A stretch of 64,000 bases of DNA from Candidatus Woesearchaeota archaeon (GTDB taxonomy: Archaea > Nanobdellota > Nanobdellia > UBA10117 > JABICX01), in the NCBI GenBank assembly GCA_018652045.1, contig JABICX010000010.1, positions 68,451-132,450 of the forward strand, given 5' to 3'. This document shows, one piece after another, positions 58,700 through 61,601 of this stretch. Positions within the stretch are counted from its first letter, which is position 1; each line of letters begins with the position of its first letter. The notes beneath the pieces were generated by a model that worked only from the letters and a program-made list of their open reading frames with translations, ran no database searches and was not told where the DNA came from. A program made the position numbers and the translations under genes.

Positions 58700-61601
58700 T
58701 AGAGAAGCCTTTTGTTGGATAGCTTGGCTTGAGAAACTTATGAAGGTCGTGGCAAGCTGCGATAAGCTGGGGGTAGACGCATGCAGTCTTTGATCCCCAG
58801 ATTACCTAATCCGACTTCGGATGAGCTTAGGCTCATGTTCTCATTAGAGAACGGGTACGCGCTGAATTGAAACATCTTAGTAAGCGCAGGAAAAGAAATC
58901 AATAGAGATTCCCTTAGTAATGGCGAACGAACAGGGAGAAGGGCGTTCCGAATCCGCTGCCGTGAGGCAGTGGAGATGTGGTGCTAGTTACATCTCGAAA
59001 TTTTTTGGTGAAGTCTGCTGGAAAGCAGGACCATAGAGGGTGATAGTCCCGTAATCGACGATGATTGAGATGATTGCTAGCGAAGAGTAGTGCGCCTTGA
59101 AATTGGCGTATGAATATGGGAGGCAATAACTTCCAACCCTAAATATTTCCAAGACCGATAGTGTACGAGTACCGTGAGGGAAAGCTGAAAAGGACCGCTA
59201 ACGCGGAGTGAAAAGATCTTGAAAACAAAAGGCAATAGTACGTTGCGGCGTTTCGGCGTTGCAACTTTCGTTTAGAAAAATGAGCTAGCGAGTTTATCTA
59301 TGTGGCGAGGTTAACCGAAAGGGTAGCCGAAGCGAAAGCAAATTCCCGCAGTTTACGAGGGGAGCCGTATGCAAGTGCGGTTGAGTCACATGGTTAAGAC
59401 CTGAAGCCTGACGAGCTATGCCTGGGCAAGGTGAAGCGATGGTAAAACGTCGTGGAGGCCTGAAGAGGTGCTGTGGACATGCGTTCTTCTGACCTGGGTA
59501 TAGGGGTGAAAAGCTAATCGAGTCGGGCTATAGCTGGTTCCTGCAGAAATAGGCCGTAGTCTAATTTCAATCGAGCGAGTGCGAAGGGTAGAGTACAGAT
59601 TAAGCATTTAGGGGGAGAAATCCCTCGGTGTTTTGTCTAACTCCGAATCTTCGTTCCGTGTAGACATTGGGAGACAGGGCGTCCGGGTTAAGCTTGGCGT
59701 CCTATAGGGGAACAACCCAGAATGAAGTTAAGGCCCCAAAATATTGGTTAAGTGTACTTAAGGTTTCGTTAATCTAAAACAGTCGGAAGGTTGGCTTAGA
59801 AGCAGCCATCCTCTAAGGAAAGCGTAACAGCTCACCGATCGAGATTAACGGGACCGTAAATGGACGGGACTAAACCAATTGCCGATACTTCATGGTTACA
59901 TCTTTTAGATGTATTCCGGTATGCAGGCGCCTTACTAGGGTAGAAGCGTGTTTGAGAGAATGCGTGAACCTGGTAATGATGTGAATGCTAGCAGTAGTAA
60001 TATCAGAGTGACGTGAGAAACGTCATCGTCTAAAGGGCAAGGTTTCCTCAGCACTGATCATCAACTGAGGGTTAGTCGGTCCTAAGGCATGACCTAAAGT
60101 GGTTATGTCGAAAGGGAAACAGGTTAATATTCCTGTACCTTAAAATATTTCGGCGACGATAGTTTGTTTCTGACGCTTCTGGATAAGCCTTGCACTCTTG
60201 TCTGAGTGTTTAAGCGTATAAGTCTGGTGAGTGCTGTAATGGCGAGACCCAGATGAAAGCGTGAATAACGTTTAGTTTGGCTAATTCCTGGAGCCCATGA
60301 AAAAGAAGCAAATAGTATATTTTAAGTCCGTACCCAGATCCGGCACTGGTGCCCTGGCTGAGAAGGCCAAGACGTGAAAGGACAATCCATTTTAGGGAAC
60401 TCGGCAATCTAGCCCCGTATCTTCGGTATAAGGGGTCCCAGCGCTTGTTAACGCGAGTGCTGGGTACAATAACTAGGGAGATCCGACTGTTTAATAAAAA
60501 CTTAGGTGGCTGCAATGCGGAAACGCTTAGTATAGCCGCTTACTTCTGCCCAGTGCCAGTACCTGAAACCCGGGTTCAACCGGACGAAGGGCTGGTAAAC
60601 GGCGGGCCTAACCTTGAGGCTCTTAAGGTAGCGTAATACCTTGTCGTTTAATTAACGACTTGCATGAATGGAGTAACGAGATCTCCACTGTCCCGAGATG
60701 GAACCTTATGAACATTCTATTGTGGTGCACGGGCCACAGACGTCCAGTGGGAAGTAAAGACCCCGTAGAACTTCACTATAGCCTGTAGCTGTTATTCGAT
60801 TTTAGTTGCATAGAGTATGTAGGAGACGTTATATCCTTGCATTTTGGTGTAAGGGGAGTCAAAAGTGTAACACTACACTTCTAAGATTGTATAACTTACT
60901 CTAGATGAGGACACCTATAGGTGGGTAGTTTGGGTGGGGCGCCACCCTCTTGAAAGAGTATCAAGAGGACACAATGGTTAGCTCATCCCGGTCGGAAATC
61001 GGGAGTAGAGGGCAAATCTAAAAGCTAGCCTGACAAGGTTATTAAAAGCACGTAACCTTGGCACGAAAGTGAGTATTAGCGAACATCGATACACTTTTGT
61101 TGAGCGTTCGATCTGATAGAAAAGTTACCTCGGGGATAATTGAGTGGTGTCATGCTAGCGTACATAGCGACCATGACGCTTGCTACTTCGATGTCGGCTT
61201 TGCCTATCCTGGTGGTGCACAAGCCACCAAGGGTGCGGGGGTTCATTGGTAGAGAGAAATATTTTTTCTATCAAACCTTGACCGATTAAAAGGCATCATG
61301 AGCTGGGTTTAGTACGCCGCGAGGCAGTATGTCTAATATCTACTGGATGTGTTGGCAGTCTGAGTGTAAGAATCTCTCAGTACGAAAGGAACGGAGGATC
61401 CGCGCCTCTGGTCTACCGGTTGTCTGACAAGGCAGGCCGGGCAGCTACGCGCGAAATGGATAAGTTCTGAAAGCATCTAAGAACGAAGCCGAACGTGAAA
61501 AGAGACTGTTTAATCTCCCATAGAAGATGGGTTTGATAGGGCTGGTGTGTAAGAGTCAAGGCAACGAGACTTTCAGCATGCAGCTACTAACCGATTGTGT
61601 T
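58700..61601 (+). rRNA. rrl: 23S rRNA (mature ends approximate, bounded by the processing stem)
   Basis: GATGAAGGTCGTGGCAAGCTGCGATAAGC near the 5' end. GACTGTTTAATAAAAAC. AAGGTAGCGTAATACCTTGTCG. GGGGATAA...TTCGATGTCGGC. GAGCTGGGTTTAG. AGTACGAAAGGAAC (sarcin-ricin loop). Confidence 0.9.
61245..61280 (+). other. candidate 36-nt BHB mini-intron in the 23S rRNA A-loop (helix 92)
   Basis: Exon helix CGG/CCG, central helix GGGT/ACCT, 3-nt bulges TCA and TGA, intron helix TTGGTAGA/TCTATCAA. Removal gives CGGGGGTTC|ACCG, colinear with the canonical GGGCUGUUCGCCC. Confidence 0.6.

What the first reader, a model, noticed from the sequence alone, without database searches (positions are those of the whole stretch)
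61245..61280. BHB-flanked 36-nt insert inside the 23S rRNA A-loop (helix 92): candidate rRNA mini-intron at a catalytic-core position
In domain V the sequence reads GGGTGCGGGGGTTC-[ATTGGTAGAGAGAAATATTTTTTCTATCAAACCTTG]-ACCGATTAAAAGG. The canonical archaeal and bacterial sequence has GGGC-UGUUC-GCCC-AUUAAAG, the A-loop that carries Um2552 and G2553.

The insert is framed by a near-ideal bulge-helix-bulge. The exon helix is CGG/CCG, the 4-bp central helix is GGGT/ACCT, the two 3-nt bulges are TCA and TGA, and the intron helix is 8 bp (TTGGTAGA/TCTATCAA).

Cleaving after the second bulge nucleotide on each strand removes exactly 36 nt. This restores a helix 92 of canonical length with the GUUC loop core intact. 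An unspliced insert here would disrupt the A-site tRNA CCA-end docking loop, so excision is expected.

BHB rRNA introns are known in some archaea. I do not recall a tiny ORF-less one at this position.
Basis: partly seen in the sequence, partly recalled or inferred. Interest (0 to 1): 0.8.

Follow-up and report, generated by a model that had tools for sequence, protein, structure and literature searches.

The report
Mini-intron in the ribosome's A-loop
A 36-base hairpin interrupts the A-loop of the 23S rRNA gene of a small DPANN archaeon; it has the structure of an archaeal intron cut out by the tRNA-splicing enzyme, which makes it a new site and host lineage for a known kind of element.

Summary
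Rfam's archaeal LSU model places 36 extra bases (61245-61280) in the loop of helix 92, the A-loop. In E. coli numbering this is between 2556 and 2557.

The insert and its flanks form one canonical bulge-helix-bulge (BHB) motif:
- a 3-bp exon helix, which is the native H92 stem;
- a 4-bp central helix;
- two 3-nt bulges;
- a 13-bp intron hairpin.

Cutting after the second nucleotide of each bulge gives GGGGGUUC^ACCGAUUAAAAGG. An intron-less Woesearchaeota relative (L007) has exactly this sequence.

Variants of 32 and 33 nt sit at the same site in two metagenome contigs and a Pacearchaeota MAG. They keep the BHB through four compensatory double changes. One of these pairs an exon A-loop base with an intron base.

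Only 0.2-0.5% of shuffled inserts give any canonical BHB at this junction.

The best explanation is a small ORF-less BHB intron, removed by the splicing endonuclease EndA and with the exons joined by the ligase RtcB. No RNA data were available, so excision is inferred.

Short hairpin BHB introns in archaeal rRNA are already described, and so are BHB introns in DPANN LSU rRNA. I also found 33-47-nt mini-introns in the same loop of Crenarchaeota, at 2552/2553. The verdict is a new member of a known kind, of moderate interest.

The parts
58691..61610 (+). 23S rRNA gene (host gene). It is part of a 16S (56798-58260) - tRNA-Ala (58408-58483) - 23S operon.
   Evidence: Rfam RF02540 at 2523 bits, covering model positions 1-2987. 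No other window-specific insert longer than 14 nt relative to relatives.
61236..61238 (+). Exon helix h, 5' strand (CGG). This is the H92 stem, E. coli 2548-2550.
   Evidence: Pairs with 61282-61284. Invariant in the three intron-bearing sequences.
61239..61242 (+). Central 4-bp helix H, 5' strand (GGGU). These are A-loop nucleotides 2551-2554, including G2553.
   Evidence: Pairs with 61275-61278. The G61240-C61277 pair is U-A in L001, a compensatory change.
61243..61245 (+). 5' bulge (UC|A). The predicted 5' splice site is between 61244 and 61245.
   Evidence: Canonical 3-nt bulge. Cleavage after the second bulge nucleotide follows the established BHB rule, which I take from general knowledge.
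61245..61280 (+). The 36-nt intron (AUUGGUAGAGAGAAAUAUUUUUUCUAUCAAACCUUG). It has no ORF.
   Evidence: Extra relative to the Rfam model. Absent from L007, L006, L008 and L009. Present only once in the window.
61246..61274 (+). Intron helix h': a 13-bp hairpin (61246-61258 with 61262-61274) and a 3-nt loop.
   Evidence: Three of the six outer pairs show compensatory double changes in L001.
61275..61278 (+). Central helix H, 3' strand (ACCU). This is intron sequence that masks the A-loop bases.
   Evidence: RNAalifold predicts this helix independently.
61279..61281 (+). 3' bulge (UG|A). The predicted 3' splice site is between 61280 and 61281.
   Evidence: The middle bulge base varies (G in the window, U in L010, C in L001), as expected for an unpaired position.
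61282..61284 (+). Exon helix h, 3' strand (CCG). This is the H92 stem, E. coli 2558-2560.

Best explanation
Positions 61245-61280 are a small ORF-less archaeal bulge-helix-bulge (BHB) intron in the 23S rRNA gene of a DPANN archaeon related to Woesearchaeota and Pacearchaeota. It lies between the equivalents of E. coli C2556 and G2557, in the A-loop of helix 92.

**Structure in the primary transcript (shown by sequence analysis).**
- The native H92 stem acts as the exon helix.
- Four A-loop bases (2551-2554, including G2553) pair with the last paired bases of the intron. This forms the 4-bp central helix.
- The rest of the intron folds into a 13-bp hairpin.
- The result is two 3-nt bulges on opposite strands. 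The geometry matches a tRNA anticodon arm with a canonical 37/38 intron: a 7-nt loop with the intron after the sixth loop base.

**Processing (inferred).**
- The tRNA-splicing endonuclease EndA cuts after the second base of each bulge.
- The RtcB ligase joins the exons to give ...GGGGGUUC-ACCGAUUAAAAGG... and probably circularises the 36-mer.
- The A-loop is then free to fold and dock the CCA end of the A-site tRNA.

Presence of the intron is polymorphic among close relatives. It appears to be an old, vertically decaying or occasionally transferred element rather than something the ribosome needs.
For: - **Location.** The Rfam structural alignment puts the 36 extra nt in the H92 loop. E. coli numbering was checked on rrlH.
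- **Motif.** A strict hBHBh' scan of the 96-nt region finds one solution: h = 3 bp, H = 4 bp, h' = 13 bp.
- **Energy.** The BHB conformer evaluates to -17.2 kcal/mol against an MFE of -18.4. The fold z-score is -3.2.
- **Chance.** Only 0.2-0.5% of shuffled inserts give a canonical BHB, and 7.5e-5 give h' of at least 8 bp.
- **Splice product.** The predicted product is identical to the sequence of intron-less relative L007, a Woesearchaeota MAG with 85-91% 23S identity.
- **Homologous introns.** L010 and L011 (32 nt, 89.5% 23S identity) and L001 (Pacearchaeota, 33 nt, 76% identity) carry an insert at the same site. Each has one canonical BHB that gives the same junction.
- **Covariation.** On the 13 shared pairs, 97.4% of cells are paired, against 23-43% when the register is slid. 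Four pairs carry double compensatory changes. One is an exon-intron pair in the central helix (G-C to U-A).
- **Independent prediction.** RNAalifold recovers the central helix, the 5' bulge and h'.
- **BHB introns in the same genome and lineage.** tRNA-Ile(UAU) has a canonical 36-nt intron at 37/38. tRNA-Ser has a 47-nt insert in the anticodon loop; I read it by eye as a relaxed BHB, and no scan confirmed that. L010 has a second canonical BHB intron of 184 nt, 80 nt upstream in 23S; its spliced form equals the window's sequence.
- **Literature.** EndA is present in DPANN lineages (PMC5829648). BHB introns are reported in DPANN LSU rRNA genes (PMC6125680).
Against: - No RNA-level evidence exists: no spliced reads and no circular intron.
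- EndA and RtcB are not encoded in this 64-kb window. Their presence in the genome is assumed from their universality in archaea.
- The covariation rests on only three distinct sequences.
- The exon helix is short (3 bp). RNAalifold, on the isolated fragment, prefers a different outer pairing that uses GGUG upstream of H92. In the Rfam consensus structure two of those G's are drawn as the 3' strand of another helix.
- The 23S processing stem of this operon shows no strict BHB. That comparator for BHB use in rRNA processing is therefore missing.
Confidence: 0.87

Rival explanations
1. The insert is retained. It would be an expansion segment or extra hairpin that stays in the mature 23S rRNA and protrudes from the A-loop.
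For: It forms a stable AU-rich hairpin (-10.8 kcal/mol alone). DPANN rRNAs are divergent, for example G instead of U at 2552.
Against: - The site is the conserved core of the peptidyl-transferase centre, not a variable region.
- The insert's 3' end pairs with A-loop bases 2551-2554, and this pairing is maintained by a compensatory exon-intron change. If retained, it would sequester G2553, the base that pairs with C75 of the A-site tRNA (established knowledge).
- Close relatives do without the insert and have otherwise identical flanks.
- The exact two-bulge geometry has no explanation under this reading.
Confidence: 0.03
2. The insert is an intervening sequence that is cut out but not religated. 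This would leave a 23S rRNA fragmented at the A-loop, as with bacterial RNase III-processed IVSs.
For: Fragmented rRNAs exist in bacteria. Short non-intron insertions cleaved by RNase III are described at other 23S sites (PMC11270868).
Against: - The structure is a BHB, not the long perfect duplex that RNase III uses.
- In archaea, BHB cleavage products are normally ligated by RtcB. This holds for tRNA introns and for circular pre-rRNA intermediates (established knowledge; PMC7714728 abstract).
- A nick between 2556 and 2557 would lie in the A-site docking loop.
- Known bacterial IVS sites are in helices 25 and 45 (established knowledge), not helix 92.
Confidence: 0.05
3. The feature is an artefact or a dead gene: an assembly chimera, or an insertion in a decaying rRNA pseudogene.
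For: The window comes from an unidentified source, and MAG assemblies can be chimeric at rRNA operons.
Against: - The 23S gene is full length at 2523 bits, and the operon is intact.
- Related inserts occur independently at the same phosphodiester bond in two JGI metagenome contigs and one Pacearchaeota MAG. Their sequences differ but the structure is conserved.
Confidence: 0.02
4. The insert is a self-splicing (group I or group II) intron, or a mobile element with a homing endonuclease.
For: Group I introns occur in the LSU rRNA of Woesearchaeota and Pacearchaeota, for example at L2593 and L1931 (PMC6125680).
Against: - At 36 nt it is far too short for a ribozyme core or an ORF.
- Rfam gives no intron-family hit in the window or in L001, L007 and L010.
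- There is no second copy in the window.
Confidence: 0.01

Closest known systems
Short (<50 nt) hairpin-forming BHB introns of archaeal 16S rRNA genes in Thermoproteales and Desulfurococcales (the 'HP' class of Jay & Inskeep 2015, PMC4496867)
   Same: It is ORF-less and under 50 nt. It consists of little more than a hairpin plus the bulge-helix-bulge core. It sits in a highly conserved, functionally important rRNA site, and its presence is polymorphic among relatives.
   Different: The host gene is 23S rather than 16S. The host lineage is mesophilic, AT-rich DPANN (window G+C about 38%) rather than hyperthermophilic Crenarchaeota. The site is the A-loop, 2556/2557. The motif here is fully canonical hBHBh'.
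Crenarchaeal A-loop mini-introns found here (L002-L005, L012, L013: MAGs labelled Pyrobaculum, Desulfurococcaceae, Acidilobaceae and Zestosphaera)
   Same: They are 33-47-nt ORF-less hairpin inserts in the same helix 92 loop. Their predicted spliced product, GGGGCU^GCCCGCCCA, equals that of 30 intron-less loci.
   Different: They lie four nucleotides upstream (2552/2553) and have unrelated sequence. The central helix uses the H92 5' stem strand (GGGG/CCCY). The outer exon helix is imperfect, with a U.C mismatch, so the motif is the relaxed HBh' type. They are therefore an independent acquisition. I could not establish whether they have been described in print.
Canonical archaeal pre-tRNA intron at position 37/38, for example the tRNA-Ile(UAU) intron in this window (48646-48681)
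   Same: The hBHBh' geometry is identical. A stem is followed by a 7-nt loop, the first four loop bases pair with the intron's 3' part, and the intron follows the sixth loop base. The length is also the same, 36 nt. EndA and RtcB are presumed to process both.
   Different: The host RNA is 23S rRNA. The masked bases are A-loop bases rather than the anticodon.
Classical crenarchaeal 23S rRNA introns (Desulfurococcus mobilis I-DmoI intron; the two roughly equal-length introns of Staphylothermus marinus; cited in PMC3608112)
   Same: They are BHB-spliced introns in 23S rRNA.
   Different: The D. mobilis intron encodes a LAGLIDADG homing endonuclease. I could not verify the exact sites and lengths of the S. 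marinus introns, because Kjems & Garrett 1991 is not in the held library. My memory that they are about 55 nt and lie in conserved parts of domains IV and V is only a lead.

Membership tests
Archaeal BHB (hBHBh') intron | Two 3-nt bulges on opposite strands, separated by a 4-bp helix | tested here: met
   Bulges at 61243-45 and 61279-81. Helix 61239-42 with 61275-78 (3 Watson-Crick pairs and 1 G.U). Only one solution was found in the region.
Archaeal BHB (hBHBh') intron | Flanking helices on both sides (exon helix h and intron helix h') | tested here: met
   h is 3 bp, the native H92 stem. h' is 13 bp.
Archaeal BHB (hBHBh') intron | Cleavage at the bulges restores a functional, homologous exon sequence | tested here: met
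   The predicted junction GGGGGTTC^ACCGATTAAAAGG is identical to intron-less L007. H92 regains its canonical length relative to Rfam and E. coli.
Archaeal BHB (hBHBh') intron | The motif is conserved by covariation among homologous introns | tested here: met
   13 pairs, 97.4% paired, 4 compensatory double changes; slid controls 23-43% paired. Only 3 distinct sequences.
Archaeal BHB (hBHBh') intron | The host encodes the splicing endonuclease EndA and an RNA ligase (RtcB) | not testable with these tools
   Neither is among about 57 ORFs of the window scanned with Pfam, and the rest of the genome is not available. EndA is reported across DPANN (PMC5829648). BHB tRNA introns in the window imply that the machinery is present.
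Archaeal BHB (hBHBh') intron | Excision and exon ligation observed in RNA (spliced rRNA, circular or linear free intron) | not testable with these tools
   No transcriptome data were accessible.
Hairpin mini-intron class (<50 nt, ORF-less; PMC4496867) | Length under about 50 nt, no ORF, a predictable hairpin that maintains the BHB | tested here: met
   36 nt, with a hairpin of -10.8 kcal/mol and the BHB.
Group I / group II self-splicing intron | A ribozyme core detectable by covariance model; length of about 200 nt or more | tested here: not met
   No Rfam hit. Length is 36 nt.
Homing-endonuclease-carrying mobile intron | Encodes a LAGLIDADG or other homing endonuclease ORF | tested here: not met
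   36 nt cannot encode a protein.
rRNA expansion segment / bacterial-type IVS | Located in a variable region or at the known IVS helices (H25, H45) | tested here: not met
   The insert is in the loop of the conserved H92 hairpin. The positions of the known IVS helices are taken from general knowledge.

The most novel reading that the evidence does not exclude
The intron may not be merely tolerated. It could act as a cis-acting mask of the A-loop. Its 3' end pairs with bases 2551-2554, including G2553, so it would keep the A-site docking loop unavailable until EndA and RtcB act. Splicing would then be a late checkpoint in the assembly of the peptidyl-transferase centre, in organisms with very reduced ribosome-biogenesis machinery. 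Two observations are compatible with this reading but do not demonstrate it: independent mini-introns have been acquired in the same loop in Crenarchaeota (2552/2553) and in DPANN (2556/2557), and the exon base and intron base co-vary.
Probability: 0.08. Interest if true: 0.75.

Novelty: new member of a known kind. Interest (0 to 1): 0.4.

Why it matters
- **Scope of protein-dependent rRNA splicing.** It adds the A-loop of the peptidyl-transferase centre, and the Woesearchaeota/Pacearchaeota branch of DPANN, to the places where archaeal rRNA needs protein-dependent splicing to become functional.
- **Annotation and surveys.** Such inserts interrupt conserved primer and probe sites and can degrade rRNA-based detection and alignment of these poorly sampled organisms. 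Annotators should remove them before phylogenetic work.
- **Intron evolution.** The H92 hairpin carrying this intron reproduces the geometry of a tRNA anticodon arm with a 37/38 intron. The same loop has been invaded independently in Crenarchaeota. This supports the view that any stem-loop able to form a BHB in a conserved RNA can host such introns.
- **A model substrate.** A 36-nt substrate with a clear exon-intron covariation is a convenient minimal model for testing DPANN EndA specificity.

Tried and rejected
- **BHB at the rRNA processing stems, as an internal control.** No strict BHB flanks the 23S. Its ends form a plain 16-bp stem, GAAGCAATGCACACAA/TTGTGTGTATTGCTTC. Only weak candidates flank the 16S.
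- **EndA or RtcB in the window.** About 57 ORFs were scanned with Pfam and neither was found. A 483-aa ORF that I suspected might be RtcB is cysteinyl-tRNA synthetase.
- **Group I intron.** No Rfam hit in the window or in relatives.
- **Other copies of the insert in the window.** None with up to 3 mismatches.
- **An apparent anomaly in Crenarchaeota.** I first thought the crenarchaeal A-loop inserts would splice to an aberrant loop (UGCCC instead of UGUUC). The last genome scan removed that concern: UGCCC (30 loci) and UGCUC (66 loci) are normal intron-less archaeal A-loops.
- **Primary literature on 23S intron positions.** Kjems & Garrett 1991, Nomura et al. 1998 and Tocchini-Valentini et al. 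2011 are not in the held library. Full-text searches for an intron at helix 92 or position 2552 found nothing relevant.
- **Thermodynamic folding alone.** The MFE and the RNAalifold outer helix do not reproduce the exact BHB. This is expected, because nearest-neighbour models penalise the two bulges and the fragment lacks its rRNA context.
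Full report
**1. What is in the sequence**

The window carries an archaeal rRNA operon: 16S at 56798-58260, tRNA-Ala at 58408-58483, and 23S at 58691-61610 (Rfam RF02540, 2523 bits). I aligned the last 671 nt of the 23S gene to the Rfam archaeal LSU model. 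This shows a single large insertion: 38 nt against 2 model positions, inside the loop of the hairpin cgGGcUGU[..]gCCcg, which is helix 92. That amounts to 36 extra nucleotides.

I checked the numbering on E. coli rrlH, where 2547-2561 is AUGGCUGUUCGCCAU. The window reads G2547-C-G-G-G-G2552-G2553-U-U-C2556, then the insert at 61245-61280, then A2557-C-C-G-A2561. The observation and its coordinates are therefore correct. The site is the conserved A-loop, not an expansion segment.

The first intron base and the first 3' exon base are both A. At the DNA level the boundaries could therefore be shifted by one nucleotide.

**2. The bulge-helix-bulge motif**

I scanned the 96-nt region for canonical hBHBh' motifs. 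The criteria were a 4-bp central helix, two 3-nt bulges on opposite strands, an exon helix of at least 2 bp and an intron helix of at least 3 bp. The scan returned one solution:

| Element | Coordinates | Sequence or size |
|---|---|---|
| Exon helix h | 61236-38 with 61282-84 | 3 bp (native H92 stem) |
| Central helix H | 61239-42 with 61275-78 | GGGU/ACCU, one G.U pair |
| 5' bulge | 61243-45 | UC\|A |
| 3' bulge | 61279-81 | UG\|A |
| Intron hairpin h' | 61246-58 with 61262-74 | 13 bp |

- This conformer evaluates to -17.2 kcal/mol, within 1.2 kcal/mol of the unconstrained optimum.
- The region folds better than its shuffles, with z = -3.2.
- I kept the exons fixed and shuffled the insert 200,000 times. 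A canonical BHB at this junction appeared in 0.5% of shuffles with h' of at least 3 bp, in 0.23% with at least 4 bp, and in 0.0075% with at least 8 bp.

The geometry matches a tRNA anticodon arm with a canonical intron. There is a stem, then a 7-nt loop (2551-2557), and the intron follows the sixth loop base. The first four loop bases pair with the 3' part of the intron. tRNA-Ile(UAU) in the same window has exactly this arrangement, with an intron of the same length (48646-48681).

**3. Relatives with and without the insert**

Pattern scans of the GTDB species genomes and the JGI metagenomes gave the decisive comparisons.

| Locus | Source | 23S identity to window | Insert at 2556/2557 |
|---|---|---|---|
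| L007 | Woesearchaeota MAG | 85-91% over the part held | none; reads GGGGGTTCACCGATTAAAAGG |
| L010, L011 | JGI metagenome contigs | 89.5% | 32 nt |
| L001 | Pacearchaeota MAG | 76% | 33 nt |
| L006, L008, L009 | more distant DPANN | about 70% | none |

- The L007 sequence is exactly the product predicted by cutting after the second base of each bulge.
- The same strict scan finds one canonical BHB in each intron-bearing sequence. In every case the junction is GTTC^ACCG.
- The apical parts of the introns are similar (AGAGAAAUAAUUUCU in L010 against AGAAAAUAAUUUCU in L001). This suggests the introns share a common origin.

On the 13 pairs shared in register, 97.4% of cells are paired, against 23-43% when the partners are slid. 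Four pairs show changes on both sides. Three of these are in h'. The fourth is in the central helix: the exon base at 2552 and its intron partner change together, G-C in the window and U-A in L001. RNAalifold independently recovers the central helix, the 5' bulge and h'.

RNAalifold does choose a different outer helix, using GGUG just upstream of H92. In the Rfam consensus structure, two of those G's are drawn as the 3' strand of another helix. I therefore regard that alternative as an artefact of folding an isolated fragment.

**4. Context**

- The window has no other window-specific insertion longer than 14 nt in 23S, and none in 16S (1463 nt against a 1478-position model).
- L010, L011 and L007 carry a further insert of 184-211 nt, 80 nt upstream of the A-loop site (window equivalent 61165, near the E. 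coli 2500 region by my reading). The window lacks it.
- In L010 this upstream insert is also framed by a canonical BHB. Its predicted spliced product, GCGTACAT^AGCGACC, equals the window's sequence. Rfam finds no group I intron there.
- This lineage therefore has at least two polymorphic BHB-intron sites in domain V.
- The surrounding genes are ordinary archaeal housekeeping genes: Orc1/Cdc6, topoisomerase VI A and B, RadA, RPA, Cdc48, NMD3, aIF1A, three aminoacyl-tRNA synthetases, and type IV pilus components. Neither EndA nor RtcB lies in the window.

**5. Mechanism**

The following are shown:
- the position of the insert;
- the motif;
- its conservation by covariation;
- the identity of the predicted product with an intron-less homologue.

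The following are inferred from established knowledge of archaeal splicing:
- EndA recognises the BHB and cuts both bulges.
- RtcB ligates the exons and probably circularises the 36-mer.
- The A-loop then folds.

Retention of the insert is very unlikely. It would tie up G2553 and fill the A-site docking pocket, and close relatives function without it. Cleavage without ligation, giving a fragmented 23S, cannot be excluded without RNA data. It is not the usual fate of BHB-cleaved RNAs in archaea.

**6. Comparison with what is known**

- Archaeal 23S introns have been known since D. mobilis and S. marinus (cited in PMC3608112).
- BHB introns co-occur with group I introns in the LSU genes of Woesearchaeota and Pacearchaeota (PMC6125680).
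- DPANN EndA types are catalogued (PMC5829648).

My first scan also recovered 33-47-nt inserts in the same loop in six loci from MAGs labelled Pyrobaculum, Desulfurococcaceae, Acidilobaceae and Zestosphaera. L002 and L005 are identical over the stretch read.
- These inserts lie at 2552/2553 (GGGGCU|A...AA|GCCCGCCCA).
- Their central helix is GGGG/CCCY, and the outer helix is imperfect.
- Their predicted product, GGGGCUGCCCGCCCA, matches 30 intron-less loci.

The A-loop is therefore a recurrent mini-intron site. The DPANN intron is a separate acquisition, four nucleotides downstream. I found no paper in the held library that describes either A-loop site. The key older papers could not be read, so prior description cannot be excluded.

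**7. Verdict**

The element is a new member, at a new site and in a new host lineage, of a known kind of element. Interest is moderate. The finding fits the known tendency of archaeal rRNA introns to sit in conserved functional sites. It offers a compact substrate with a clear exon-intron covariation, and it has practical consequences for rRNA annotation in DPANN.

Noticed in passing
L002:2355-2438(-), L003:4289-4373(+), L004:1518-1597(+), L005:1608-1691(-), L012:884-974(-), L013:2399-2492(+): Crenarchaeal 23S genes (MAGs labelled Pyrobaculum, Desulfurococcaceae, Acidilobaceae and Zestosphaera) carry 33-47-nt hairpin inserts in the same A-loop, but at 2552/2553 (GGGGCU|A..AA|GCCCGCCCA). The motif is a relaxed HBh' type. 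The spliced product equals that of 30 intron-less loci. Several of these loci also diverge from the 23S consensus just upstream and downstream, as if further introns are present.
   Followed up: partly
window 61239-61244 and 61281; L006, L007, L008, L009: In this DPANN lineage the A-loop reads G-GGUUC-A or G-GGUUA-A. Position 2552, the universally 2'-O-methylated U of E. coli, is G, and the closing pair 2551-2557 is G.A instead of C-G. Only L001 keeps U2552. Among 120 other archaeal loci the loop is UGCUC (66), UGCCC (30), UGUUC (22) or UGUCC (2), so UGUUC is far from universal.
   Followed up: partly
L010:2759-2942; L011 and L007 at the equivalent site (window equivalent 61165): Close relatives carry a 184-211-nt ORF-less insert, 80 nt upstream of the A-loop site (near the E. 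coli 2500 region by my reading). The window lacks it. In L010 the insert has a canonical BHB, and its spliced product equals the window sequence. Rfam finds no group I intron there.
   Followed up: partly
window 48607-48717: tRNA-Ile(UAU) with a canonical 36-nt hBHBh' intron at 37/38 (48646-48681). This is the same length and geometry as the rRNA intron. ARAGORN missed this gene; Rfam found it.
   Followed up: yes
window 38238-38364: tRNA-Ser(CGA) with a 47-nt insert in the anticodon loop. By my hand pairing its central helix has one mismatch, which would make it a relaxed BHB. The strict scan did not find it.
   Followed up: partly
window 29270-29374: A likely tRNA-Cys(GCA) lies immediately upstream of the cysteinyl-tRNA synthetase gene (29408-30859). 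It has an insert of about 35 nt between the D-arm and the anticodon stem, which is a non-canonical intron position. Rfam scores only the 3' part, at 25.9 bits (below gathering), and ARAGORN calls it 'tRNA-???'. No strict BHB was found. The first 10 nt (GCGCAGGTGG) are duplicated 50 nt upstream, at 29220.
   Followed up: partly
window 58660-58690 and 61600-61625: The 23S ends pair in a plain 16-bp stem (GAAGCAATGCACACAA/TTGTGTGTATTGCTTC). It lacks the strict BHB that is usual in archaeal 23S processing stems. No 5S rRNA gene lies within the 2.4 kb downstream of the 23S.
   Followed up: partly
window 61658-63526: A 622-aa ORF directly downstream of the 23S has no Pfam match. Several other ORFs of 120-290 aa also have none, for example 7577-8353, 10312-11187, 17392-18156, 54704-55264 and 55799-56494.
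   Followed up: no
L001 (Pacearchaeota) 16S, about 6904-7094(-): BLAST against the window's 16S breaks at two places. This implies inserts of about 93 and 65 nt in the Pacearchaeota 16S gene, at window 16S positions of about 628 and 726. They are probably further small introns.
   Followed up: no
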